Part shown: in pieces, positions 587 through 16,635 of the stretch
How the letters are laid out: every line of letters begins with the position of its first letter
Position numbering within the stretch: the first letter of the stretch is position 1
DNA from: a virus
Lineage: Duplodnaviria; Heunggongvirae; Uroviricota; Caudoviricetes
DNA length: 19,804 nucleotides
Strand: one strand, 5' to 3'
Virus record (IMG/VR): IMGVR_UViG_2648501400_000003
Notes under the pieces: model-generated
What the model was told of the DNA's origin: nothing
The model's database searches: none
What the model saw: the letters and a program-made list of their open reading frames with translations, nothing else
Made by a program: the position numbers and the translations under genes

Positions 587-1141
587 ATGAATTATCCAAC
601 TATCGTTAACGGCATCGATTTCCGAGATCTGATTTTTGTGGCAAACAACGATCCGGTTACAGATTCTTTTATGGTGGCAAAAGCATTTGGAAAGCTGCCG
701 AAGAACGTAGTTCGTGACATTGAACGAACCATAGAAGCTTGCCCTCCTGAGTTTGATACAAAGCTCAACTTTGAGCTTTGCTATAAAAACAATGAGTTAC
801 AGAATGGTAAGCCGCAAAAATTCTACCGTCTCCGCAAGGATGGGTTGATGCTTTTGGTTATGTCCTACACCAAAAAAGAAGCAATGCGTATCAAAATTGC
901 TTATATCAACGCATTTAACTGGATGTACGCCATGCTTCAGGTTGGTCATCGTCAATTTGAAGAAGAGAGAAATGCCGTAATGCTGGAGTACATGAAAGAG
1001 AAGGATGTCGCCAGCATGTCAGGCCGTCTGCTCAATCGCTGGGGGAGAACGAAAAAACCTCAATTGCTTGCAAAGCTGAAACGCCTGGAGAGACAGGGAC
1101 AGTTTTTATTACCGGGATTCGATAAGGGGATTCAAGCCTGA
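587..1141 (+). CDS. Rha-family phage regulatory protein (pfam Phage_pRha-like N-terminal domain)
   Basis: ATG at 587 preceded by AAGGTGA. N-terminus TDSFMVAKAFGKLPKNVVRDIER and YRLRKDGLMLLVMSYTKKEAMRIKIAYINAF match the conserved Rha-family motifs as I remember them. Sits between the lysis genes and cos. Confidence 0.65.
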   Translation: MNYPTIVNGIDFRDLIFVANNDPVTDSFMVAKAFGKLPKNVVRDIERTIEACPPEFDTKLNFELCYKNNELQNGKPQKFYRLRKDGLMLLVMSYTKKEAMRIKIAYINAFNWMYAMLQVGHRQFEEERNAVMLEYMKEKDVASMSGRLLNRWGRTKKPQLLAKLKRLERQGQFLLPGFDKGIQA

Positions 1142-1658: not shown

Positions 1659-2186
1659 ATGTCAAATGTGAGCGGGATCGGTGATGCTTATTACTGGAGT
1701 GTTTTTAAAATCGCCGAGGCCTTTGGGCTTCACCGGGACACAGTAAAAAAACGGCTCCTCGCGGCCAACACTCCTGTGGCTGCGACTGTCAGGGGGAACC
1801 CCGTTTACGCCCTGCAGCATGTCGGGCCAGCCCTGTTTAGTGTGAAGCATGAGGCAGCAGACTCTGTTCATGATCCATCCCGTATGGAGCCGAAAGAGAG
1901 AAAGGACTGGTACCAGTCTGAAAATGAAAGGATCAAGCTGGAAAAGGAGCAGCGAAAACTCATCCCAGTTGATGAAGTAGTCATCGTCTATTCGTCCATG
2001 AGAAAGGCTGTCGTCCAGGTTCTGGAGACAATTCCGGATGTTCTTGAACGCGATTGCGCCCTGACTCCTCAGGCCGTCGGCGTTGTACAGCAGGCCATTG
2101 ATGACCTGCGATACACTCTTCAGGAAAAATCCTACGAGGCTTGTGCTGCTGAATTAATTCCTGATGAGGAAGGAGAGAGTCTCTAG
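1659..2186 (+). CDS. Terminase small subunit (Nu1-like, N-terminal HTH)
   Basis: IAEAFGLHRDTVKKRL... HTH region and ELIPDEE C-terminus parallel lambda Nu1 (ADIFGASIRTIQNW..., ...ELIPGLLSEY). ATG at 1659 has GGAG 6 nt upstream; the upstream ATG at 1647 (ORF track start) has no SD but cannot be excluded. Confidence 0.75.
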   Translation: MSNVSGIGDAYYWSVFKIAEAFGLHRDTVKKRLLAANTPVAATVRGNPVYALQHVGPALFSVKHEAADSVHDPSRMEPKERKDWYQSENERIKLEKEQRKLIPVDEVVIVYSSMRKAVVQVLETIPDVLERDCALTPQAVGVVQQAIDDLRYTLQEKSYEACAAELIPDEEGESL

Positions 2187-2194
2187 GAGGAATA

Positions 2195-4294
2195 ATGGGT
2201 TTTTCATCAGCCCGAAATTTGGGAAGGGACATATCGGCAGGATTTTCCCCACCACGTCGCATGCCGATTTCGGAGGCTGTTAAAAAATTCATGCGTGTTC
2301 CCAAGGGGGCTGGTAACTCGGTGCCATGGGATCCTGAACTGACACCCTACATCATTGAGCCCATGAACTGCCTGGCATCGCGTGAATACGATGCGGTGAT
2401 TTTTGTTGGTCCTGCGCGAACAGGGAAGACCATTGGTCTGATCGATGGATGGATTGTCTATACCATCGTTTGCGATCCTTCGGACATGCTCGTTGTGCAG
2501 ATGACCGAAGATAAGGCCCGCGAGCATTCTAAAAAGCGCCTCGACAGAACGTTCAGAAGCAGTGCGGCGGTAAAGAAAAGAATGAGTCCACGTCGTAACG
2601 ACAATAATGTTCATGATAAGACGTTCAGGGATGGCTCGTTCCTTAAAATTGGTTGGCCCTCGGTCAACATTATGTCGTCGTCGGATTACCGGTTTGTCGC
2701 CTTAACCGATTACGACCGTTTTCCGGAGAATATCGACAGCGAGGGTGATGGTTTCTCCCTGGCCTCAAAACGTACCACCACATTTATGTCCGCCGGGATG
2801 ACTCTGGTGGAGAGCTCGCCGGGACGTGACATCTGCGACAGCAAATGGCGACGTAAGTCGCCTCATGAAGCGCCACCGACGACTGGTATTCTTTCCCTTT
2901 ACAATCGTGGTGACCGCCGCCGCTGGTACTGGCCATGTCCGCACTGCGGTGAATATTTTCAGCCAGCCATGGATGCCATGACCGGCTACCGTAATGAACC
3001 GGATCCCTTTAAAGCCAGTGAGGCGGCGTATCTACTTTGCCCGCACTGCAGCGGCATTATCACTGCGGAGAAAAAGCGTGAGCTCAATAGTGCAGGAGTC
3101 TGGTTGCGTGAAGGTCAGGTCATTGATCGTAACGGCAACGTTTCCGGTGAACCGCGCCGCTCCCGTATCGCCAGTTTCTGGATGGAAGGGCCAGCTGCTG
3201 CGTATCAGACCTGGGCGCAACTGGTTTACAAATTACTGACTGCAGAACAGGAGTATGAAGCGACAGGAAGCGAAGAAACACTCAGGGCGGTTATCAATAC
3301 CGACTGGGGATTACCTTATCTTCCCCGCGCCAGCATGGAGCAACGAAAAAGTGAACTGCTTGAGCAGCGGGCAGAGCCAGTTCCTTCCCGCAGTGTGCCG
3401 GATGGCGTTAATTTCCTTGTGGCGGCAGTGGATGTGCAGGCGGGACGTCATCGCCGTTTTGTGGTTCAGGTAACGGGCTATGGCAGCCGTGGCGAACGCT
3501 GGATTATTGATCGTTACAACATCACGCAGTCATTGCGCGGTGACAGCGACGGGGAGAGCCAGCGAATTGATCCGGCCAGCTATCCGGAAGACTGGGATGT
3601 CCTGCTGACGGATGTTTTTCATAAAAGCTGGCCGCTGGCCTCCGATCCTTCTCAACAAATGCGACTGATGGCAATGGCGGTGGACTCCGGCGGTGAAGAC
3701 GGGGTCACTGATAATGCCTATAAATTCTGGCGTCGTTGCCGTCGTGATGGCCTTGGTAAACGTATTTACCTGTTTAAGGGCGACAGCATCCGGCGCGCAA
3801 AACTGATCAGCCGTACATTCCCTGATAACACCGGACGAACGGGCCGACGGGCGCAGGCCGCAGGTGATGTGCCGCTCTGGTTTCTTCAGACGGATGCCCT
3901 GAAAGACCGGGTGAATAACGCGTTATGGCGTGACTCGCCAGGTCCCGGCTATGTGCATTTCCCTGACTGGCTGGGGAGCTGGTTTTACGACGAACTGACG
4001 TATGAAGAGCGGAGCAGTGACGGGAAATGGAGTAAACCGGGTCGCGGTGCCAACGAAGCTTTTGACCTGATGGTGTATGCCGAGGCTCTGGTCATTCTGC
4101 ATGGATACGAAAAGATCCGCTGGCCGGATGCACCGGAGTGGGCGAGCCGGGAAACCTGGCTGGAGTGTGTCCCGGACAGTACCGAACCGTCACCCTCACC
4201 GGAACCGGTATCCACGCCTGTTAAAAAACAAAAACGGAAGAAAACAGTAACTGACGATGTTAACCCCTGGCTGACTTCCGGAGGATGGTTATGA
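2195..4294 (+). CDS. Terminase large subunit (lambda GpA family)
   Basis: 699-aa ORF with perfect AGGAGG SD. Walker A-like VGPARTGKT near the N-terminus; position directly after the small subunit; size and overall architecture as for lambda A. Confidence 0.9.
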   Translation: MGFSSARNLGRDISAGFSPPRRMPISEAVKKFMRVPKGAGNSVPWDPELTPYIIEPMNCLASREYDAVIFVGPARTGKTIGLIDGWIVYTIVCDPSDMLVVQMTEDKAREHSKKRLDRTFRSSAAVKKRMSPRRNDNNVHDKTFRDGSFLKIGWPSVNIMSSSDYRFVALTDYDRFPENIDSEGDGFSLASKRTTTFMSAGMTLVESSPGRDICDSKWRRKSPHEAPPTTGILSLYNRGDRRRWYWPCPHCGEYFQPAMDAMTGYRNEPDPFKASEAAYLLCPHCSGIITAEKKRELNSAGVWLREGQVIDRNGNVSGEPRRSRIASFWMEGPAAAYQTWAQLVYKLLTAEQEYEATGSEETLRAVINTDWGLPYLPRASMEQRKSELLEQRAEPVPSRSVPDGVNFLVAAVDVQAGRHRRFVVQVTGYGSRGERWIIDRYNITQSLRGDSDGESQRIDPASYPEDWDVLLTDVFHKSWPLASDPSQQMRLMAMAVDSGGEDGVTDNAYKFWRRCRRDGLGKRIYLFKGDSIRRAKLISRTFPDNTGRTGRRAQAAGDVPLWFLQTDALKDRVNNALWRDSPGPGYVHFPDWLGSWFYDELTYEERSSDGKWSKPGRGANEAFDLMVYAEALVILHGYEKIRWPDAPEWASRETWLECVPDSTEPSPSPEPVSTPVKKQKRKKTVTDDVNPWLTSGGWL

Positions 4295-4503: not shown

Positions 4504-6011
4504 TGGCAATTCTTGATGATGTGATTGGCGTTTTTTCACCAGGATGGAAAGCGGCAAGGCTGCGTTCCCGTGCGGTGATCCAGGCTTATGAGGCCGTAAA
4601 AACGACGCGGACACACAAAGCCCGACGGGAGAACCGAACTGCCGACCAGTTAAGCCAGTACGGGGCCGTGTCGTTACGTGAGCAGGCCCGTTACCTTGAT
4701 AACAACCACGATCTGGTCATTGGTGTATTTGACAAGCTGGAAGAACGGGTGGTGGGGAAAAACGGGATTATTGTCGAGCCACATCCGGTATTACGCAATG
4801 GGGCCATTGCCCGTGATCTGGCAGCGGAGATACGCACCCGATGGAGTGAATGGTCTGTCAGTCCGGAAGTCACCGGGCAGTTTACCCGTCCGATGCTGGA
4901 ACGTCTGATGCTGCGTACCTGGCTGCGCGATGGTGAGGTGTTTGCCCAGATGGTTTCCGGGCGCATAAACAGCCTGACGCCTTCTGCCGGTGTTCATTTC
5001 TGGCTGGAGGCGCTCGAGCCGGACTTTATTCCCATGACCAGTGATGAGAGCAACAGGCTGAATCAGGGCGTGTTTGTTGATGACTGGGGGCGTCCCGAAA
5101 AATATCTGGTGTATAAAAGCCGTCCCGTATCCGGACGGCAGATGGAAACCAAAGAAGTGGATGCAGAGCGAATGCTGCATCTTAAATTTGTTCGCCGTCT
5201 GCACCAGATGCGCGGGACGTCTTTATTGTCCGGTGTGCTGATCCGCCTCAGCGCCCTGAAAGAGTATGAAGATTCTGAGCTGACTGCAGCAAGGATCGCC
5301 GCTGCTCTGGGGATGTACATCCGGAAAGGCGACGGACAGAGCTATGAAACGGATGGTAATGACAGCAAGGAGAATGAACGCGAGCTTACCATTCAGCCAG
5401 GCATTATTTACGACGATCTGAAACCCGGCGAAGAAATCGGAATGGTGAAGTCGGATCGTCCCAATCCTAACCTGGAAACTTTTCGTAATGGTCAGTTGCG
5501 TGCCGTGGCGGCGGGCAGTCGTCTGAGTTTTTCCAGTACGGCACGCAACTATAACGGCACTTACAGCGCCCAGCGTCAGGAACTGGTTGAGTCTACTGAT
5601 GGCTACCTGATCCTGCAGGACTGGTTTATTGGTGCCGTCACCCGTCCGATGTATCGTGCCTGGCTGAAACAGGCTGTGGCATCCGGTGTTATCAGGCTAC
5701 CCCGCGATCTTGACCGTTCTTCACTGTATACCGCGGTGTATTTCGGACCAGTGATGCCGTGGATTGACCCTGTTAAGGAGGCTGAGGCCTGGAAAATCCA
5801 GATTCGTGGTGGAGCGGCGACAGAATCAGACTGGGTACGTGCTGGTGGTCGTAATCCGGATGATGTCAAACGTCGGCGCAAGGCCGAAATTGATGAAAAC
5901 CGCAAGCTGGATCTGGTATTTGATACCGATCCGGCCAGTGATAAAGGAGGCAGCAGTGCCGCAACGAAACGACAGGAGCCGCAGCACACCGACGACCAGT
6001 CCGAAGAATAA
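4503..6011 (+). CDS. Portal protein
   Basis: 502-aa ORF starting at the ATG that overlaps the W stop (TGATG), GAGG 5 nt upstream. Position and size are typical of the portal in the lambda gene order. The ORF-track start at 4431 is an upstream in-frame extension overlapping W. Confidence 0.85.
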   Translation: MAILDDVIGVFSPGWKAARLRSRAVIQAYEAVKTTRTHKARRENRTADQLSQYGAVSLREQARYLDNNHDLVIGVFDKLEERVVGKNGIIVEPHPVLRNGAIARDLAAEIRTRWSEWSVSPEVTGQFTRPMLERLMLRTWLRDGEVFAQMVSGRINSLTPSAGVHFWLEALEPDFIPMTSDESNRLNQGVFVDDWGRPEKYLVYKSRPVSGRQMETKEVDAERMLHLKFVRRLHQMRGTSLLSGVLIRLSALKEYEDSELTAARIAAALGMYIRKGDGQSYETDGNDSKENERELTIQPGIIYDDLKPGEEIGMVKSDRPNPNLETFRNGQLRAVAAGSRLSFSSTARNYNGTYSAQRQELVESTDGYLILQDWFIGAVTRPMYRAWLKQAVASGVIRLPRDLDRSSLYTAVYFGPVMPWIDPVKEAEAWKIQIRGGAATESDWVRAGGRNPDDVKRRRKAEIDENRKLDLVFDTDPASDKGGSSAATKRQEPQHTDDQSEE

Positions 6012-6024
6012 TTCCTGGTTCAGG

Positions 6025-7983
6025 ATGCAGGCTGGTCACCAGAGTGACGCGGATATTTATATTTATGACGAGATTGGTTTCTGGGGTGTTACAGCGAAGC
6101 AGTTTATCAGTGATCTGAATGCACTGGGCGATATCACCCACATTAATCTTCATATTAATTCACCGGGTGGCGATGTCTTTGAAGGCATCGCCATTTTTAA
6201 TGCACTGAAAACACATGGTGCGTCCATTACCGTTTATGTCGACGGTGTGGCGGCGTCAATGGCGTCGGTCATTGCGATGGTGGGAAACCCGGTCATTATG
6301 CCGGAAAACACTTTCATGATGATTCATAAACCATTTGGCTTTACGGGCGGTGATGCGGAGGACATGCGCACCTATGCCGACCTGCTCGATAAAGTTGAGG
6401 CGGTTCTGTTACCCGCTTATGCACAGAAAACCGGGAAAACCACCGATGAAATTGCTGCCATGCTGGCGGATGAGACCTGGATGTCCGGTGCCGAATGTCT
6501 GGCACATGGATTTGCTGATCAGGTAACGCCAGCCGTTAAGGCAATGGCATGTATTCAGTCAAAACGTACAGAGGAATTTAAAAAGATGCCGGAATCCATT
6601 CGAAACATGATTACTCCGCCACGCAACAGTGCTCCACGCGTACAGGATGATGAACCTGCAGCCTCCCGGACGCCAGTGCAGGCAGCAGCACCCGTGGTGG
6701 ATGAAAACAGTATCCGTGCGCAGGTACTGGCAGAGCAAAAAGCGCGTGTAAACGGTATTAATGATCTGTTTGCCATGTTTGGCGGGCGTTATCAGACGCT
6801 GCAGGCTCAGTGTCTTGCCGATCCTGAATGTTCGCTGGAGCAGGCCCGCGAAAAGCTGTTGAACGAGATGGGGCGCGAGTCCACGCCATCCAATAAAAAT
6901 ACCCCGGCTCATATTTATGCCGGTAACGGTAATTTTGTGGGGGACGGGATCCGCCAGGCGCTGATGGCGCGTGCCGGATTTGAAAAAACCGAACGTGATA
7001 ATGTCTACAACGGGATGACCCTGCGTGAATATGCCCGTATGTCACTGACTGAACGGGGTATTGGGGTTTCCGGTTATAACCCGATGCAGATGGTCGGTGC
7101 GGCGTTCACACACAGTACGTCTGACTTCGGTAATATTCTGCTGGATGTTGCGAACAAAGCCATTCTGCAGGGCTGGGAAGATGCCCCTGAAACCTATGAA
7201 CAGTGGACGCGGAAAGGTCAGTTGTCTGATTTTAAAATTGCCCATCGTGTGGGTATGGGGGGCTTCAGTGCTCTGCGTCAGGTGCGTGAAGGGGCGGAAT
7301 ATAAATACGTCACCACCGGAGATAAACAGGCCACTATTGCACTGGCGACCTATGGCGAGCTGTTCAGTATCACCCGTCAGGCCATTATCAATGATGATCT
7401 GAATATGCTGACCGATGTCCCGATGAAACTGGGCCGTGCGGCGAAATCCACCATTGCCGATCTGGTTTATGCCATTCTGACGTCTAACCCGAAAATCTCC
7501 ACAGATAATGTAAGTCTGTTCGATAAAGCGAAACATGCAAACGTACTGGAGAGCGCTGCAATGGACGTGGCATCGCTGGATAAAGCCCGCCAGTTGATGC
7601 GCGTTCAGAAAGAGGGGGAGCGTCATCTGAATATTCGTCCTGCGTTCGTACTGGTACCGACGGCGATGGAGTCTGTTGCTAACCAGGTCATTCGCTCCTC
7701 AAGTGTCAAGGGGGCTGACATTAACGCCGGTATTATTAACCCGGTGAAAGATTTTGCGACCGTTATTGCAGAGCCTCGTCTTGATGATAACAGCCAGACC
7801 ACCTTCTACCTGGCTGCGTCCAAAGGCTCCGATACGATTGAAGTGGCTTATCTCAACGGTGTGGATACGCCATATATTGATCAGATGGAGGGCTTCAGTG
7901 TGGATGGCGTGACAACGAAAGTGCGTATTGACGCCGGTGTCGCGCCAGTTGATCACCGCGGTCTGGTGAAATGTACGGCGTAA
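6025..7983 (+). CDS. Fused head maturation protease (ClpP-like) - scaffold - major capsid protein
   Basis: N-terminal domain has ClpP-type catalytic motifs GVAASMAS (Ser) and MMIHKP (His). A Pro/Ala/Gln-rich middle segment precedes a roughly 310-aa C-terminal domain the size of a major capsid protein. First ATG after the portal stop; the ORF is open upstream to 5764 but that part overlaps the portal. Confidence 0.85.
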   Translation: MQAGHQSDADIYIYDEIGFWGVTAKQFISDLNALGDITHINLHINSPGGDVFEGIAIFNALKTHGASITVYVDGVAASMASVIAMVGNPVIMPENTFMMIHKPFGFTGGDAEDMRTYADLLDKVEAVLLPAYAQKTGKTTDEIAAMLADETWMSGAECLAHGFADQVTPAVKAMACIQSKRTEEFKKMPESIRNMITPPRNSAPRVQDDEPAASRTPVQAAAPVVDENSIRAQVLAEQKARVNGINDLFAMFGGRYQTLQAQCLADPECSLEQAREKLLNEMGRESTPSNKNTPAHIYAGNGNFVGDGIRQALMARAGFEKTERDNVYNGMTLREYARMSLTERGIGVSGYNPMQMVGAAFTHSTSDFGNILLDVANKAILQGWEDAPETYEQWTRKGQLSDFKIAHRVGMGGFSALRQVREGAEYKYVTTGDKQATIALATYGELFSITRQAIINDDLNMLTDVPMKLGRAAKSTIADLVYAILTSNPKISTDNVSLFDKAKHANVLESAAMDVASLDKARQLMRVQKEGERHLNIRPAFVLVPTAMESVANQVIRSSSVKGADINAGIINPVKDFATVIAEPRLDDNSQTTFYLAASKGSDTIEVAYLNGVDTPYIDQMEGFSVDGVTTKVRIDAGVAPVDHRGLVKCTA

Positions 7984-9659: not shown

Positions 9660-10403
9660 ATGACCACACCAAATCCACTGGCAAAGACGAAAGGTGCGGG
9701 GACGACGTTCTGGATGTATACCGGCAAGGGCGATGCGTTTGCGAACCCTTTGTCGGACACTGACTGGCTGCGTCTTGCGATGGTGAAGGATCTGCAACCT
9801 GGCGAAATGACCACTGATGCAGAAGATGACACTTATCTCGATGATGAGGATGCAGACTGGAAAACGACAACCCAGGGGCAGAAATCCGTTGGTGATACTT
9901 CGGCGACGCTGGCCTGGCGTCCGGGTGACAGCGGGCAGAAAAAACTGGTTCAGTTGTTCGACTCCGGTGAAGTCTGCGCGTTTCGTATCAAATATCCCAA
10001 CGGTACTGTTGATGTTTTCCGCGGCTGGCTGAGCTCACTGGGTAAAACCATTGCCTCAAAAGACGTGATGACCCGCACTGTGAAAATCAGCGGTGTGGGG
10101 CGTCCGTATCTGGCAGAGGAAGGCACTGAAACCGTGAGCGTTACCGGGCTGACGGTGGCACCGGCATCTGCCAGTGTAAAAGTGGGAGCAACCACCACGC
10201 TGACCTTTACAGTAAAACCTGACGGAGCCAGTGACAAAGCGATCAGTGTGCATTTGACAGATCCACAGACTGCCACGGTGACCCTGAACGGGCTTGTGGC
10301 CACGGTGAAAGGCGTGAAGCAGGGCAGTGTCAGCATTGTGGGCATGACTTCTGACGGCGATTTTGTGGCAGTGGCTACGGTGGCTGTCAGCGCCGCAGGT
10401 TAA
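9660..10403 (+). CDS. V: Major tail protein V with C-terminal Ig-like (Big_2-type) domain
   Basis: AAGGAGG SD. MTTPNPLAKTKGAGTTFWMY...YLDDEDADW...FRGW closely parallels lambda V ([20 protein letters not shown]...); the C-terminal 90 aa are a beta-rich Ig-like region as in lambda V. Confidence 0.9.
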   Translation: MTTPNPLAKTKGAGTTFWMYTGKGDAFANPLSDTDWLRLAMVKDLQPGEMTTDAEDDTYLDDEDADWKTTTQGQKSVGDTSATLAWRPGDSGQKKLVQLFDSGEVCAFRIKYPNGTVDVFRGWLSSLGKTIASKDVMTRTVKISGVGRPYLAEEGTETVSVTGLTVAPASASVKVGATTTLTFTVKPDGASDKAISVHLTDPQTATVTLNGLVATVKGVKQGSVSIVGMTSDGDFVAVATVAVSAAG

Positions 10404-10423
10404 CAGGACGATACTCATCATTT

Positions 10424-10447
10424 GCCCCGGTTATCCGGGGCTTTTTT
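10424..10447 (+). terminator. Intrinsic terminator after the major tail gene
   Basis: GCCCCGG-TTAT-CCGGGGC perfect 7-bp GC stem followed by TTTTTT, 20 nt after the V stop. Confidence 0.6.
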
Positions 10448-10460
10448 GCAGGTGGAGAAC

Positions 10461-10850
10461 ATGATGTTTCTGAAACAGGGCACGTTTAATTATGAAAAGC
10501 AGTCCGTGGTGCTCAGTGAGCTGTCCGGGCTGCAGAGAATTGAATATCTGGCGTTTGTTCAGCAGCGAACGGCAAAGTTTGATGCCGAAGAGGGAGAACT
10601 GCCGGAGGCTGAACGACAGATTGCTTTTCTGCGGATGGGGATGGATATCAATGCCTGGCTGGTTTCCCGCTCACTGTGGAATGCGGAACAGTCTCAGGAT
10701 GTTGAGACGCTTTGCGCATCCGTTATTACAACATGGTCGTATGATGCCCTGGGAGCGGGGGCGGAGATGGTTCTGTCGCTGAGCGGTATGGGAGCCATTG
10801 AGAATGCCGGGGATCTGGAGCATGAGGTGCTGACGCCGGAAAAGTCCTGA
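10461..10850 (+). CDS. G: Tail assembly chaperone G
   Basis: MMFLKQGTFNYEKQSVVLSELSGLQRIEYLAF parallels lambda G (MFLKTESFEHNGVTVTLSELSALQRIEHLAL). GGAG SD; the start could be the ATG at 10461 or 10464. The ORF-track start at 10422 overlaps the V terminator. Confidence 0.85.
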   Translation: MMFLKQGTFNYEKQSVVLSELSGLQRIEYLAFVQQRTAKFDAEEGELPEAERQIAFLRMGMDINAWLVSRSLWNAEQSQDVETLCASVITTWSYDALGAGAEMVLSLSGMGAIENAGDLEHEVLTPEKS

Positions 10851-11188
10851 CGCGGGAAATGCAGTTTGTCATGCGGCTTGCCCGGGAGTTCCGGCGGGCA
10901 GACTGGCGGCGGATGCTGTCGGAAATGTCGGCCACTGAGCTTGGTGAGTGGGGCGATTATTTCCGGATGCAGAGCTTCAGTGATGTGTGGATGGATGCGC
11001 AGTTTGCCTCGCTGAAGGCATTGATCGTGAGAATGGTGTCCGGCAGCAGTGATGCTGCGGTGGCTGATTTCAGCCTTTTACCGGAAGAGAACGGGATACC
11101 GGAGCGAACGGACGAAGAACTGATGCATCTTGGGGAAGGTATTTCCGGAGGTGTGCGTTATGGACCAGATAGCCAACCTGGTCATTGA
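10461..11188 (+). CDS. T: Tail assembly chaperone G-T fusion, made by -1 programmed frameshift near the end of G (T part 10826-11188)
   Basis: The T ORF is in the -1 frame relative to G and open from 10826, overlapping the last 22 nt of G, as in lambda G/T. Candidate slip site G GAA AAG at 10838-10844 (lambda has G GGA AAG). Confidence 0.6.
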
Positions 11189-14100
11189 TTTGGGGATTGA
11201 TGCGGCAGAGTTTAAAAATGAAATTCCCCGTATCAAAAACCTTCTGAATGGTGCAGCCAGCGATGCAGAACGGTCTTCTGCCCGTATGCAGCGTTTTATG
11301 GAGCGTCAGACTCAGGCCGCCAGGCAGACAACGCAGGCGGCTTCTTCGGCTGCAACAGCCGCATCCGTCCATGCGCAGACGGTGGAGAAGAACGCACAGG
11401 CTCATGAACGCATGGCCCGCGAGGTGGAGAAAACCCGCCAGCGCATGGAGGCACTGAGCCAGAAAATGCGCGAGGAACAGGCGCAGGCCATGGCTCTGGC
11501 GGAGGCTCAGGATAAAGCGGCTGCTGCGTTTTATCGTCAGATTGACAGTGTGAAACAGGCCAGTGCGGGGCTACAGGAATTACAGCGTATTCAGCAGCAG
11601 ATCCGACAGGCCAGAAACAGTGGCGGGATTGGCCAGCAGGATTATCTGGCGCTGATTTCTGAGGTTACTGCGAAAACCCGTGTTCTTACACAGGCTGAGG
11701 AAGAGGCTACCCGACAGAAAGTGGCGTTTATCCGTCAGCTTAAAGAGCAGGCAACCCGCCAGAATCTTTCATCTTCTGAGTTGCTTCGTGCCAGGGCAGC
11801 CCAGCTAGGGGTAAGCAGTGCTGCAGAAGTGTATATCCGCAAAATGGAGCAGGCAGGAAAAGCCACGCATTCGCTGGGTCTGAAAAGTGCAGCAGCCCGC
11901 CAGGAGATAGGCGTTCTGATAGGTGAACTGGCCCGTGGCAATTTAGGAGCGCTGAGGGGATCCGGGATAACGCTGGCTAACCGTGCCGGATGGATAGACA
12001 CACTGATGTCACCGAAAGGCATGATGCCAGGAGCGGTTATTGGCGGTATTGCCGCGGCCGTCTATGGTCTGGGTAAAGCCTGGTATGACGGTCAGAAGGA
12101 GGGGGAAGAATTTAACCGCCAGCTATCACTGACGGGGCATTATGCCGGAGTCACTGCCGGGCAGCTGTGGACGCTCAGTCGTGCTATTTCCGGGAATGGT
12201 ATCACGCAACATGCTGCAGCCGGTGCGCTGGCTCAGGTGGTGGGGAGTGGTGCATTTCGTGGAAACGATATCGGTATGGTGGCGAGAGCTGCCGCACAGA
12301 TGGAGCGATCGGTTGGCCAGTCGGTCAGCGATACCATAAATCAGTTTAAGCGGCTGAAGGATGATCCTGTAAATGCCGCGAAGGCTCTGGACAATGAGCT
12401 GCATTTTCTTACTGCCACTCAGCTTGAGCAGATACGCGTCCTTGGGGATCAGGGGCGGTCCAGTGATGCGGCACGGATAGCCATGTCTGCACTGGCAGAG
12501 GAAACCGGTCGGCGTACTGCGGATATTGATAATAACCTCAATGCGCTGGGCAGTACGCTGAAGTATCTGTCTGATTTATGGAGTCGTTTCTGGGATGCGG
12601 CCATGAATATTGGTCGTGAAGACTCGCTGGATGAACAGATTGCCGCTTTACAGGAGAAAGTGTCGCGGGCGAAAAGACTCCCCTGGACGGCATCATCTTC
12701 TCAGGTTGAATACGATCAGCAGCGTCTTAACGATCTTCAGGAGAAAAAACGCCAGAAGGATTTGCAGGATGCAAAAGAGCAGGCAGAGCGGAATTATCAG
12801 GAGCAACAGAAACGCCGTAATGCTGAAAATGCTGCACTGAACCGGATGAATGAAACGGAAGCAGCACGACATCAGCGTGAAATTGCGCGTATTAATGCCA
12901 TGCAGTACGCCGATCAGGCTGTCAGGGATGCGGCGATACAACGTGAAAATGAACGTTACGAGAAAGCCCTGGCATCCGGTAAGAAAAAAACACGCGAAAC
13001 CCGTAATGATGAGGCCACCCGGTTATTGCTGCAGTACAGTCAGCAACAGGCACAGGTGGAAGGACAGATTGCTGCTGCCAGACAGTCAGCAGGCATTGCC
13101 ACGGAAAGGATGACAGAAGCGCATAAACAGCTTCTGGCTCTGCAGCAGCGCATCAGCGACCTGGACGGGAAAAAACTGACGGCAGATGAAAAGAGTGTGC
13201 TGGCCAGTAAAGATGAACTGATTCAGGCACTGACGCTGCTGGATGTAAAACAGCAGGAGCTTCAGAAACAGACGGCACTCAACGATCTGAAGAAAAAAAC
13301 AATTCAGCTGACCAGTCAACTGGCTGAAGAAGAGCGCGCTCAGCGTCAGCAACATGACCTGGATATCGCCACGGTGGGTATGGGTGATCAGCAGCGGCAG
13401 CGATATCAGGTACAACTGAGTCTTCGCCAGAAATACCAGCAACAGCTGGAGCAGTTGAGGCGGGATAGTGAGCAGAAAGGGACATATAACACGGATGACT
13501 ACAGAAAGGCCGAGCAGGCGCTGACGGAGAGCCTGAACCGACAACTGAATGAGAATCGCCGTTACTGGCAACAGCTTGAAATTGCTCAGGGTAACTGGAA
13601 AAACGGTGCCATGCGGGCGTTTCAGAATTTCACGGCAGATGCGGATAATGCGGCAGGCACTGCTGAGCAGATGCTTACAGCGGCATTTAACAGTGCTGGT
13701 AATGCACTGGCGACCTTCTGTACCACCGGAAAACTGAACTTCAAATCTTTTACCGCCTCACTCCTTTCCGATCTGGCAAAAATTATGGCGCAGATGGCCA
13801 TGATGCAGGCGGTGAAGGGGATTGGTTCGGCGTTTGGCTGGGGGAGTGCTGCCGCTGCCAGTGTGACGCCCAATGCTGATGGTGGCGTTTATCAGTCGGC
13901 TGATTTGAGTCGCTACAGCGGCACGGTGGTTAACCGACCGACGTTTTTTGCTTTTGCAAAAGGCGCGGGTGTGATGGGGGAAGCGGGACCTGAAGCCATT
14001 CTGCCACTGCGCCGTGGTGCTGACGGTAAGCTGGGGGTTGTGGCAAATATTGGTGGTTCAGGTATGGCGATGTTTGAGCAGAATAACCATGTGGTGATTA

Positions 14101-14234
14101 ACAACGACGGCACGAACGGGCAGATAGGTCCGGCTGCTCTGAAGGCGGTGTATGACATGGCCCGCAAGGGTGCCCGTGATGAAATTCAGACACAGATGCG
14201 TGATGGTGGCCTGTTCTCCGGAGGTGGACGATGA
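11160..14234 (+). CDS. H: Tail tape measure protein H
   Basis: 1024-aa ORF from the ATG with GGAG SD, after G/T. Long Gln/Glu/Arg/Ala-rich predicted coiled-coil body. The C-terminus ...FEQNNHVVINNDGTNGQIGPAALKAVYDMARKGARDEIQTQMRDGGLFSGGGR matches lambda H as I recall it; the N-terminus MDQIANLVIDLGIDAAEF parallels lambda MAEPVGDLVVDLSLDAARF. Confidence 0.9.
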   Translation: MDQIANLVIDLGIDAAEFKNEIPRIKNLLNGAASDAERSSARMQRFMERQTQAARQTTQAASSAATAASVHAQTVEKNAQAHERMAREVEKTRQRMEALSQKMREEQAQAMALAEAQDKAAAAFYRQIDSVKQASAGLQELQRIQQQIRQARNSGGIGQQDYLALISEVTAKTRVLTQAEEEATRQKVAFIRQLKEQATRQNLSSSELLRARAAQLGVSSAAEVYIRKMEQAGKATHSLGLKSAAARQEIGVLIGELARGNLGALRGSGITLANRAGWIDTLMSPKGMMPGAVIGGIAAAVYGLGKAWYDGQKEGEEFNRQLSLTGHYAGVTAGQLWTLSRAISGNGITQHAAAGALAQVVGSGAFRGNDIGMVARAAAQMERSVGQSVSDTINQFKRLKDDPVNAAKALDNELHFLTATQLEQIRVLGDQGRSSDAARIAMSALAEETGRRTADIDNNLNALGSTLKYLSDLWSRFWDAAMNIGREDSLDEQIAALQEKVSRAKRLPWTASSSQVEYDQQRLNDLQEKKRQKDLQDAKEQAERNYQEQQKRRNAENAALNRMNETEAARHQREIARINAMQYADQAVRDAAIQRENERYEKALASGKKKTRETRNDEATRLLLQYSQQQAQVEGQIAAARQSAGIATERMTEAHKQLLALQQRISDLDGKKLTADEKSVLASKDELIQALTLLDVKQQELQKQTALNDLKKKTIQLTSQLAEEERAQRQQHDLDIATVGMGDQQRQRYQVQLSLRQKYQQQLEQLRRDSEQKGTYNTDDYRKAEQALTESLNRQLNENRRYWQQLEIAQGNWKNGAMRAFQNFTADADNAAGTAEQMLTAAFNSAGNALATFCTTGKLNFKSFTASLLSDLAKIMAQMAMMQAVKGIGSAFGWGSAAAASVTPNADGGVYQSADLSRYSGTVVNRPTFFAFAKGAGVMGEAGPEAILPLRRGADGKLGVVANIGGSGMAMFEQNNHVVINNDGTNGQIGPAALKAVYDMARKGARDEIQTQMRDGGLFSGGGR

Positions 14235-16575: not shown

Positions 16576-16593
16576 TGAAAAACGTTTTATGTG

Positions 16594-16614
16594 AAACCGC
16601 CTCAGGGCGGTTTT
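16594..16614 (+). terminator. Hairpin between I and J (possible attenuator or RNA processing site)
   Basis: AAACCGCC-TCAG-GGCGGTTT perfect 8-bp stem followed by TTTT, 18 nt after the I stop and about 20 nt before the J start. Confidence 0.35.
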
Positions 16615-16635
16615 GTCGTTTCTGGAGCGAGAGGA

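What the first reader, a model, noticed from the sequence alone, without database searches (positions are those of the whole stretch)
10826..10850. G/T programmed frameshift window with a non-canonical slippery heptamer
T is open in the -1 frame only from 10826 and G stops at 10850, so the obligatory -1 shift must occur within these 22 nt. The only slippery candidate is G GAA AAG (10838-10844), one base different from lambda's canonical G GGA AAG. The P-site re-pairing would be imperfect (GAA to GGA), which could alter the G to G-T ratio that sets tail assembly stoichiometry.
Basis: partly seen in the sequence, partly recalled or inferred. Interest (0 to 1): 0.45.

Follow-up and report, generated by a model that had tools for sequence, protein, structure and literature searches.

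The report
Tail-chaperone G/T frameshift site, common variant
This is the ribosomal -1 frameshift site that fuses the tail-assembly chaperone genes G and T of a very common lambda-like E. coli prophage; its 'odd' slippery sequence G GAA AAG turns out to be the usual one in this gene family, and lambda's textbook G GGA AAG is the rarer form.

Summary
G (10464-10850) ends at TGA 10848. The T frame (-1) is open only from 10826, after TGA 10823-10825. The only slip-capable heptamer in the overlap is G_GAA_AAG (10838-10844). It sits at exactly the position of lambda's G_GGA_AAG, and the conceptual G-T fusion aligns colinearly with lambda gpGT (E=1e-41).

The heptamer is not a peculiarity of this window. 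In 43 sequence clusters of lambda-type G/T junctions, 35 use G_GAA_AAG and 6 use G_GGA_AAG. Among 69 near-full-length 50%-identity representatives of the G family, 48 end in ..EK and 4 in ..GK.

The invariant feature is the A-site Lys on A_AAR. The base before GAA is G in 41/43 clusters, at a synonymous site. This argues for tandem slippage, with tRNA-Glu re-pairing GAA to GGA through a central G·U.

No conserved downstream structure exists. An SD-like GAGGTG lies 8 nt upstream, and such elements are modestly enriched in this subgroup.

Public records (1,849 of 5,426 complete E. coli genomes) annotate G and T as separate genes.

Verdict: an ordinary member of a known recoding system, carrying a widespread heptamer variant that is not annotated in any record checked.

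The parts
10464..10850 (+). Gene G, tail assembly chaperone (128 aa; an alternative ATG lies at 10461); stop TGA 10848-10850
   Evidence: PF06894 E=1.7e-39; TIGR01674 at 188 bits against a cutoff of 74; translation
10823..10825 (+). TGA in the -1 (T) frame; 5' limit of the window in which the shift can occur
10824..10829 (+). SD-like GAGGTG, 8 nt upstream of the heptamer; candidate 5' stimulator (inferred)
   Evidence: Predicted duplex with the 16S 3' end is -9.2 kcal/mol. SD-like elements at this distance are enriched in G_GAA_AAG clusters against codon shuffles, p=0.003. The review gives 9-14 nt as the working range for -1 shifts.
10838..10844 (+). Slip heptamer G_GAA_AAG: P-site GAA (Glu), A-site AAG (Lys). 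After the -1 slip, decoding resumes at GTC 10844-10846.
10844..11188 (+). T part of the G-T fusion, read in the -1 frame (VLTREMQFVMRLAREF...); stop TGA 11186-11188. The frame is open from 10826.
   Evidence: PF06223 E=5e-15; TIGR01715 at 134 bits against a cutoff of 77; colinear alignment with lambda gpGT
10859..10861 (+). ATG that public annotations use as an independent start of T; probably not a real start
   Evidence: Annotations. A Met is at this position in only 3/43 clusters. No properly spaced SD, read directly.
9660..10403 (+). Context: major tail tube gene V (upstream neighbour)
   Evidence: PF16461 E=9e-66 plus Big_2
11160..14234 (+). Context: tape measure gene H (downstream neighbour); overlaps the end of T by 29 nt
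   Evidence: PF06791, PF24622, PF09718

Best explanation
This is the programmed -1 ribosomal frameshift site of the lambda-type tail assembly chaperone pair G/GT.

Most ribosomes read G to TGA 10848 and release the 128-aa chaperone. A minority slip back one base when GAA (10839-10841) is in the P site and AAG (10842-10844) is in the A site.

- tRNA-Lys(UUU) re-pairs perfectly from AAG to AAA.
- tRNA-Glu(UUC) re-pairs from GAA to GGA, with G:C, a central G·U and A:U.
- Decoding continues at GTC 10844 and yields a 241-aa G-T fusion (...EVLTPEK|VLTREMQF...).

By homology with lambda, the G part of the fusion binds the tape measure protein and the T part recruits the tail tube protein.

Shown here: the anatomy, the homology, the positional identity with lambda's site, and strong nucleotide-level conservation of the heptamer and of its first G.

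Inferred: that the slip is tandem (two tRNAs), that the upstream GAGGTG stimulates it, and what the efficiency is.
For: - Anatomy.
- Homology and gene order V-G-T-H.
- The heptamer is at the lambda position and the fusion is colinear with gpGT with no gap at the junction (E=1e-41).
- Gifsy-1 (56% identical G) has the same CCG GAA AAG TCC TGA, and its record calls T 'part of ... gpG by translational frameshifting'.
- G C-terminus PEK[SP] is invariant while the linker before it is hypervariable.
- 197 unique junctions fall into 43 clusters at 80% identity: 35 G_GAA_AAG, 6 G_GGA_AAG, 2 A/C_GAA_AAG, none mixed.
- Of 69 near-full-length 50%-identity representatives, 48 end ..EK and 4 ..GK. DNA of 7 EK representatives shows 6 G_GAA_AAG and 1 A_GAA_AAG.
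- The Lys codon is always AAG in the EK and GK junctions read as DNA, although AAG is the minor Lys codon in E. coli (0.24).
- The codon before GAA ends in G in 41/43 clusters (CCG, GCG, CTG, TTG, GTG). Flanking Pro/Ala/Val codons end in G only 25-32% of the time.
- T-frame conservation begins at the heptamer.
- A_AAG is the most shift-prone tetramer in E. coli, and cognate A-site re-pairing is the main bacterial rule: PMC4066793.
Against: - No protein evidence exists for this family; everything rests on homology and conservation.
- In a reconstituted E. coli system, AUG GAA AAG gave mainly the 0-frame product at all EF-G concentrations and was used as the 'only one tRNA can slip' control (PMC6924986).
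- A_AAG alone is near background without a stimulator.
- No conserved downstream structure was found. The window fold has z=-0.96, and the 13-sequence consensus is -1.5 kcal/mol with no compensatory pairs.
- The SD-like enrichment is modest, post hoc in its distance window, not corrected for phylogeny, and absent from the 10 G_GAA_AAG clusters whose G stop lies 15 nt downstream.
- G_GAA_AAG also occurs in slip register twice elsewhere in the window (1940 and 18882). There a shift would truncate the protein after 8 codons, so the heptamer alone is probably weak.
Confidence: 0.85

Rival explanations
1. Same site and same product, but only tRNA-Lys slips. This would be A-site or P-site single-tRNA slippage on A_AAG, with the P-site codon and the first G playing no part.
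For: - Family members exist whose P-site tRNA cannot re-pair: A_GAA_AAG and C_GAA_AAG and A_GCA_AAG.
- The only invariant across all heptamer types is the Lys on A_AAR.
- The B. subtilis cdd shift at CGA AAG is a cited precedent (title only).
Against: - The first base of the heptamer is G in 41/43 clusters, at a synonymous third position of four different amino acids. That is hard to explain if P-site re-pairing is irrelevant.
- Three of the four A/C_GAA_AAG junctions (cluster 11, plus L479) have the stop codon immediately after AAG. This suggests they compensate in another way.
Confidence: 0.2
2. T is made on its own, either by initiation or by termination-reinitiation at ATG 10859 (8 nt after the G stop). 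No G-T fusion is needed.
For: An ATG exists at 10859 close to the G stop. All public annotations of this module start T there.
Against: - A Met is at that position in only 3/43 clusters, and 18/43 clusters have no Met in the first 12 T-frame residues.
- The conserved residues K-V/A-L..E..F lie upstream of any candidate start.
- No properly spaced SD precedes it: GGGAA abuts the ATG.
- The AAG and first-G constraints would be unexplained.
- In lambda the function is understood to need G and T in one chain (review PMC5009743).
Confidence: 0.05
3. The overlap is a relic with no functional recoding, because the prophage tail module is decaying.
For: Many copies are prophages. Database ORFs with G-T deletions or fusions exist (P0032 and P0049).
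Against: - Phage records named as separate phages with a stated E. coli host carry the same site at 98-99.6% identity: phi458, Ayreon, cdtI, mEp460, Tritos.
- The site is conserved across genera.
Confidence: 0.03
4. Transcriptional slippage on the A run adds or removes a base in the mRNA.
For: None beyond the presence of AAAA.
Against: The run is only 4 A. Known polymerase slippage sites need much longer homopolymers (established knowledge). The conserved G flanks and the AAG codon fit ribosomal slippage.
Confidence: 0.01

Closest known systems
Bacteriophage lambda G/GT -1 frameshift (G_GGA_AAG; Levin, Hendrix & Casjens 1993; Xu, Hendrix & Duda 2004, 2013, 2014, as cited in PMC5009743)
   Same: Homologous G and T proteins, the same V-G-T-H gene order, and the slip heptamer at the identical alignment position. 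A-site Lys AAG slips to AAA, and the fusion junction is K|V. No conserved downstream structure was found in 13 G_GAA_AAG/A_GAA_AAG junctions; lambda-type junctions were not in that alignment.
   Different: The P-site codon is GAA (Glu) instead of GGA (Gly), so -1 re-pairing has a central G·U instead of a third-position G·U. The G stop is 3 nt rather than 15 nt after the heptamer. An SD-like GAGGTG lies 8 nt upstream, which lambda lacks.
Salmonella phage Gifsy-1 STM2596/STM2595 (NC_010392)
   Same: Same subfamily (56% identical G) and an identical CCG GAA AAG TCC TGA junction. The record's product name for T already states translational frameshifting.
   Different: The slip site itself is not stated in that record, and the two CDS are not joined.
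G GAA AAG model mRNA of Peng et al. 2019 (PMC6924986)
   Same: The identical heptamer, decoded by E. coli tRNA-Glu and tRNA-Lys.
   Different: There it follows the start codon (fMet in the E/P position). It was used as a poorly slippery control and gave mostly 0-frame product. Here it is a conserved natural site deep inside an ORF.
A_AAG tetramer sites, e.g. B. subtilis cdd CGA_AAG, and the dnaX A_AAA_AAG site with its 5' SD-like stimulator
   Same: The shift depends on tRNA-Lys moving AAG to AAA. P-site re-pairing is imperfect. An SD-like element lies 8-10 nt upstream, at or near the 9-14 nt range given for -1 shifts.
   Different: No downstream hairpin like that of dnaX. The product is a C-terminally extended structural chaperone. 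Details of cdd are known to me only from the cited title.
PRFect 'twofour' motif class and the G:U re-pairing idea for GGGGGAA in actinophage tail chaperones (PMC10885494)
   Same: GGAAAA fits the XXYYYY 'twofour' pattern. That paper proposes that a GAA-decoding tRNA re-pairs with GGA through G:U.
   Different: That paper treats motifs generically on SEA-PHAGES data and does not discuss lambda-type G/T.

Membership tests
Lambda-type tail assembly chaperone G/GT with programmed -1 frameshift | Gene pair located between the major tail tube gene and the tape measure gene | tested here: met
   V (PF16461) ends at 10403. H (PF06791/PF09718) starts at 11160.
Lambda-type tail assembly chaperone G/GT with programmed -1 frameshift | Upstream ORF is a gpG homologue | tested here: met
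   PF06894 E=1.7e-39; TIGR01674 equivalog at 188 bits against a cutoff of 74
Lambda-type tail assembly chaperone G/GT with programmed -1 frameshift | Downstream ORF is a gpT homologue, in the -1 frame, overlapping the 3' end of G | tested here: met
   PF06223 and TIGR01715; 25-nt overlap in the -1 frame
Lambda-type tail assembly chaperone G/GT with programmed -1 frameshift | T has no start of its own; coding conservation in the T frame begins at the slip site | tested here: met
   Family level: conservation GK[VA]L..E..F starts at the heptamer. The Met matching ATG 10859 is present in 3/43 clusters. For this window alone an ATG exists, so independent initiation is unlikely rather than excluded.
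Lambda-type tail assembly chaperone G/GT with programmed -1 frameshift | Canonical X_XXY_YYZ slippery heptamer in the overlap | tested here: not met
   The only candidate is G_GAA_AAG. The same holds for 35/43 clusters of the family, so this feature does not define the family in practice.
Lambda-type tail assembly chaperone G/GT with programmed -1 frameshift | A-site Lys codon on A_AAR at the position homologous to lambda's AAG | tested here: met
   Lys is invariant in the protein alignment (K135). AAG in all EK/GK junctions read as DNA.
Lambda-type tail assembly chaperone G/GT with programmed -1 frameshift | G-T fusion protein actually made at a few percent of G, and required for tail assembly | not testable with these tools
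   Needs a reporter assay, immunoblot or mass spectrometry. Lambda values: about 4% shifted and a 30:1 ratio.
Stimulated -1 PRF cassettes of the dnaX / IS type | Downstream stem-loop or pseudoknot 5-9 nt after the heptamer | tested here: not met
   z=-0.96 for 100 nt downstream. The alignment fold is -1.47 kcal/mol with no compensatory pairs.
Stimulated -1 PRF cassettes of the dnaX / IS type | SD-like sequence 9-14 nt upstream of the shift site | tested here: inconclusive
   GAGGTG at 10824-10829, 8 nt before the heptamer and 9 nt before the P-site codon, at -9.2 kcal/mol. Enrichment against codon shuffles has p=0.003 overall, but only in the subgroup with a nearby stop. The test window was chosen post hoc and clusters are not phylogenetically independent.

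The most novel reading that the evidence does not exclude
G_GAA_AAG, not lambda's G_GGA_AAG, is the majority and possibly ancestral slip site of lambda-type tail chaperone genes. It works by tandem slippage in which tRNA-Glu tolerates a second-position G·U in the P site. In many lineages, including this one, it is helped by an SD-like element about 8-13 nt upstream.

Both slipping tRNAs (Glu-UUC and Lys-UUU) carry mnm5s2U34. The G:GT ratio, and hence tail assembly, of a prophage module found in a third of complete E. coli genomes would then be doubly sensitive to the host Tus/MnmA thiolation state. It would also mean that a sequence used in mechanistic work as a 'non-slippery' control is a natural programmed site.
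Probability: 0.4. Interest if true: 0.55.

Novelty: new member of a known kind. Interest (0 to 1): 0.33.

Why it matters
**Annotation.** This G/T module is in 1,849 of 5,426 complete E. coli genomes, and the closely related phage records I opened (Ayreon, mEp460, PhiR47_1, Tritos) and the RefSeq example call T as a free-standing ORF from a non-conserved ATG. Tools that look only for XXXYYYZ heptamers will miss the site in most of the family.

**Mechanism.** The family offers a natural series of heptamers at one homologous position: G_GAA_AAG, G_GGA_AAG, A_GCA_AAG, C_CCA_AAA, A_AAA_AAG and A/C_GAA_AAG. All have the same biological read-out, the G:GT ratio. This makes the long-debated contribution of P-site re-pairing, including a central G·U, directly testable in a setting where the ratio matters for fitness.

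Tried and rejected
- **Downstream stimulatory structure.** A single-sequence fold and a 13-sequence consensus fold showed nothing conserved, so I rejected it.
- **The search for related loci with the window G and with a lambda-first alignment.** Both returned 80 near-identical E. coli prophage copies. They confirmed invariance but gave no diversity. I replaced them with fixed-spacing DNA pattern scans. I filtered hits by G/T context.
- **Other GGNAAAG variants.** GGCAAAG and GGTAAAG matches were all chance hits outside G/T genes.
- **Literature on this heptamer in tail genes.** Searches found no paper in the held library describing G_GAA_AAG as a tail-chaperone slip site. Xu et al. 2004 (Mol Cell) is not held, so I cannot say whether it lists it.
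- **The thermodynamic model of Bock et al.** It does not cover second-position changes, so no efficiency prediction was possible.
- **Stop-codon proximity as a stimulator.** Stops at 0, 3 or 15 nt follow from T-frame Leu codons (CTG A). The association with the heptamer type is confounded by phylogeny, so I make no claim.
- **Transcriptional slippage and independent T initiation.** Considered and judged unlikely (see the rival explanations).

Full report
**What is there**

The window is the late (virion) region of a lambdoid E. coli phage or prophage of the cdtI / mEp460 / Ayreon / phi458 type, with 98-99.6% nucleotide identity over 10400-11200.

Around the finding the gene order is as follows:
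- V, the tail tube gene (PF16461), ending at 10403.
- A terminator-like hairpin.
- G (PF06894), 10464-10850.
- T (PF06223), in the -1 frame, ending at 11188.
- H, the tape measure gene, starting at 11160.

NCBIfam equivalog models for lambda G and lambda T both score far above their cut-offs on the conceptual fusion.

**Checking the observation**

G ends ...GAG GTG CTG ACG CCG GAA AAG TCC TGA, with TGA at 10848-10850. The -1 frame carries TGA at 10823-10825 and is open from 10826 for 121 codons. The shift must therefore occur within 10826-10847.

Of the seven in-register heptamers in that window, only G_GAA_AAG (10838-10844) allows the A-site tRNA to re-pair. The bare heptamer is common in the window, with 7 copies against 2.8 expected. 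Sequence alone therefore means little; context and conservation carry the argument.

**Homology of the site**

Lambda reads GCG GGA AAG TGT and, after the shift, GTG TTC GAC.... Here the sequence is CCG GAA AAG TCC and, after the shift, GTC CTG ACG... The two fusions align without a gap through the junction (EVLTPEK|VLTREMQF against EPVSAGK|VFDGELSF; E=1e-41).

Gifsy-1, whose G is only 56% identical, has the identical CCG GAA AAG TCC TGA. Its record names T as made by translational frameshifting.

**How general the heptamer is**

- **Protein alignment.** Among G homologues down to 54% identity, the C-terminus PEK[SP] is invariant while the preceding linker is hypervariable.
- **Species-dereplicated genomes.** A protein-pattern scan of one genome per species gave 33 loci, from E. 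coli, Shigella, Citrobacter, Xenorhabdus, Proteus, Buttiauxella, Morganella, Serratia, Symbiopectobacterium, Edwardsiella, Enterobacter, Erwinia, Kosakonia and others. Of these, 28 had G_GAA_AAG, 4 had G_GGA_AAG and 1 had A_GAA_AAG.
- **DNA pattern scans.** I scanned IMG/VR with patterns anchored on the invariant GAYTGGCG (Asp-Trp-Arg of T) exactly 56 nt downstream of the heptamer. Together with the loci above this gave 197 unique junctions in 43 clusters at 80% identity. Of these, 35 have G_GAA_AAG, 6 have G_GGA_AAG and 2 have A/C_GAA_AAG. No cluster is mixed.
- **Tree.** A quick neighbour-joining tree places the lambda clade inside G_GAA_AAG lineages, and Fitch parsimony assigns GGAAAAG to the root with 4 changes. 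This tree has no support values and ignores mosaicism.
- **Unbiased protein census.** A profile search of 1.84 billion 50%-identity representatives found 125 G homologues. Of the 69 that are near full length, 48 end in ..EK followed by 0-5 residues. Only 4 end in ..GK (one being lambda-like, AGKCSTVS), 4 in ..AK, 3 in ..PK and 2 in ..KK.
- **DNA behind those representatives.** I read the DNA of 12 of them. EK is G_GAA_AAG in six and A_GAA_AAG followed directly by TAA in one. AK is A_GCA_AAG in two. PK is C_CCA_AAA, KK is A_AAA_AAA and SKK is A_AAA_AAG.

The invariant of the family is therefore a Lys codon on A_AAR at a fixed position. G_GAA_AAG is its usual form and lambda's heptamer is a minority form.

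**Evidence on mechanism**

1. AAG is used at the slip Lys in every EK and GK junction read as DNA, although it is the minor Lys codon in E. coli (0.24). This fits the rule that A_AAG is by far the most shift-prone tetramer in E. coli and that cognate A-site re-pairing dominates in bacteria (PMC4066793).
2. The first base of the heptamer is the third base of a Pro, Ala, Leu or Val codon and is G in 41 of 43 clusters. Flanking Pro/Ala/Val codons end in G only 25-32% of the time. Selection at this synonymous site is what tandem slippage predicts, because G is needed for C36 of tRNA-Glu after the slip. The re-paired P-site duplex would be G:C, G·U, A:U. PRFect proposes the same GAA to GGA re-pairing through G:U for another tail-chaperone motif, and GGAAAA fits its 'twofour' class.
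3. Against high efficiency: Peng et al. used exactly AUG GAA AAG as the control in which 'only one tRNA can slip' and saw mainly 0-frame product. A_AAG alone is near background without a stimulator. G_GAA_AAG also occurs in slip register at 1940 and 18882 inside other genes of this window, where a shift would truncate the protein.
4. Stimulators: there is no conserved downstream structure. Upstream, the window has GAGGTG (10824-10829), a six-base match to the SD consensus, 8 nt before the heptamer and with a predicted -9.2 kcal/mol. The working range quoted for -1 shifts is 9-14 nt.
5. Across G_GAA_AAG clusters, SD-like pairing at this distance is stronger than in codon-shuffled controls. The mean is -4.39 against -3.21±0.41 kcal/mol (p=0.003), and 17 against 10.3 clusters fall at or below -5 (p=0.011). 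The excess lies entirely in clusters whose G stop is 0-3 nt after the heptamer. It is absent where the stop is 15 nt away and in G_GGA_AAG clusters. I chose the distance window after seeing the profile, and the clusters are not independent, so this is a lead and not a result.

**Independent translation of T**

Annotators start T at ATG 10859; Ayreon starts it even later. That Met is present in 3 of 43 clusters. Eighteen clusters have no Met in the first 12 T-frame residues, and conservation (G-K-V/A-L-x-x-E-x-x-F) starts at the heptamer. No properly spaced SD precedes 10859. Reinitiation after the G stop cannot be excluded for this lineage alone, but it would not explain the nucleotide constraints on the heptamer.

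**Comparison with what is known**

This is a member of the lambda G/GT recoding system. Every defining feature that I could test is met, except the canonical XXXYYYZ form of the heptamer, and most of the family also lacks that feature.

The frameshift in this subfamily was already recognised in the Gifsy-1 record. I found no paper in the held library that names G_GAA_AAG as a tail-chaperone slip site. Xu et al. 2004 could not be read, so prior description cannot be excluded.

The module occurs in 1,849 of 5,426 complete E. coli genomes. The rows listed name G and T as separate genes, and the one RefSeq record I opened has no slippage join.

**Verdict**

The feature is an ordinary, very common instance of a known system.

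The modestly interesting by-product is the family-level picture. The 'non-canonical' heptamer is the norm, and its first G is under selection. Because both slipping tRNAs carry mnm5s2U34 (modification targets per Maynard et al.), it may respond more strongly than lambda's site to host tRNA thiolation. That last point is speculation.

Noticed in passing
window 10424-10447: Terminator-like hairpin GCCCCGG-TTAT-CCGGGGC followed by TTTTTT, in the 60-nt gap between the V stop (10403) and the G start (10464). It is annotated as a terminator in the Ayreon and mEp460 records. It could lower G/T/H transcription relative to the abundant tube protein V.
   Followed up: partly
window 10859-11188; loci L001, L002, L118, L466, L467: Public records annotate T as a free-standing 109-aa ORF from ATG 10859; Ayreon starts it even later, giving 87 aa. 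None of the five records opened joins G and T by ribosomal slippage. The same module is found in 1,849 of 5,426 complete E. coli genomes.
   Followed up: yes
window 1940-1946 and 18882-18888: Two further G_GAA_AAG heptamers lie in the slip register. One is inside the DUF1441 gene (1647-2186) and one inside the J-like gene (16591-19710). A -1 shift at either would stop after 8 codons. This suggests the heptamer alone is not very slippery.
   Followed up: partly
L101, L445, L446, L479 (Morganella-like lineage); L444: Rare junctions with A_GAA_AAG or C_GAA_AAG, where the P-site tRNA cannot re-pair at its first position. In the Morganella-like lineage the G stop (TAA) follows AAG directly, which hints at a different, possibly termination-pause-assisted, single-tRNA slip.
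   Followed up: partly
L471, L472, L473, L474, L475: Other slip heptamers at the homologous position of distant G/T pairs: A_GCA_AAG (twice), C_CCA_AAA, A_AAA_AAA and A_AAA_AAG. This is a natural allelic series at one site.
   Followed up: partly
proteins P0032 (215 aa) and P0049 (212 aa): Database ORFs in which G and T are fused in one frame by internal deletions (...WSYDA|GKVLTREMQ... and ...LSLSG|FVMRLAREF...). They are probably decayed prophages or assembly artefacts.
   Followed up: no
window 6010-7980: A single long ORF combines a ClpP-type protease domain (PF00574) with a major capsid domain (PF25209), i.e. a protease-capsid fusion arrangement in the head module.
   Followed up: no
window 587-1138 and 1647-2183: A Rha-family regulator with an ORF11CD3 domain lies just upstream of the packaging genes. 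A DUF1441 protein sits where a small terminase subunit is expected, immediately before the gpA-type large terminase (2195-4291).
   Followed up: no
window 11160-11188: The tape measure gene H starts (ATG 11160) 29 nt inside the end of T, in another frame. The same T/H overlap is annotated in the related records opened (Gifsy-1, Ayreon, mEp460, PhiR47_1, Tritos, one RefSeq E. coli).
   Followed up: no
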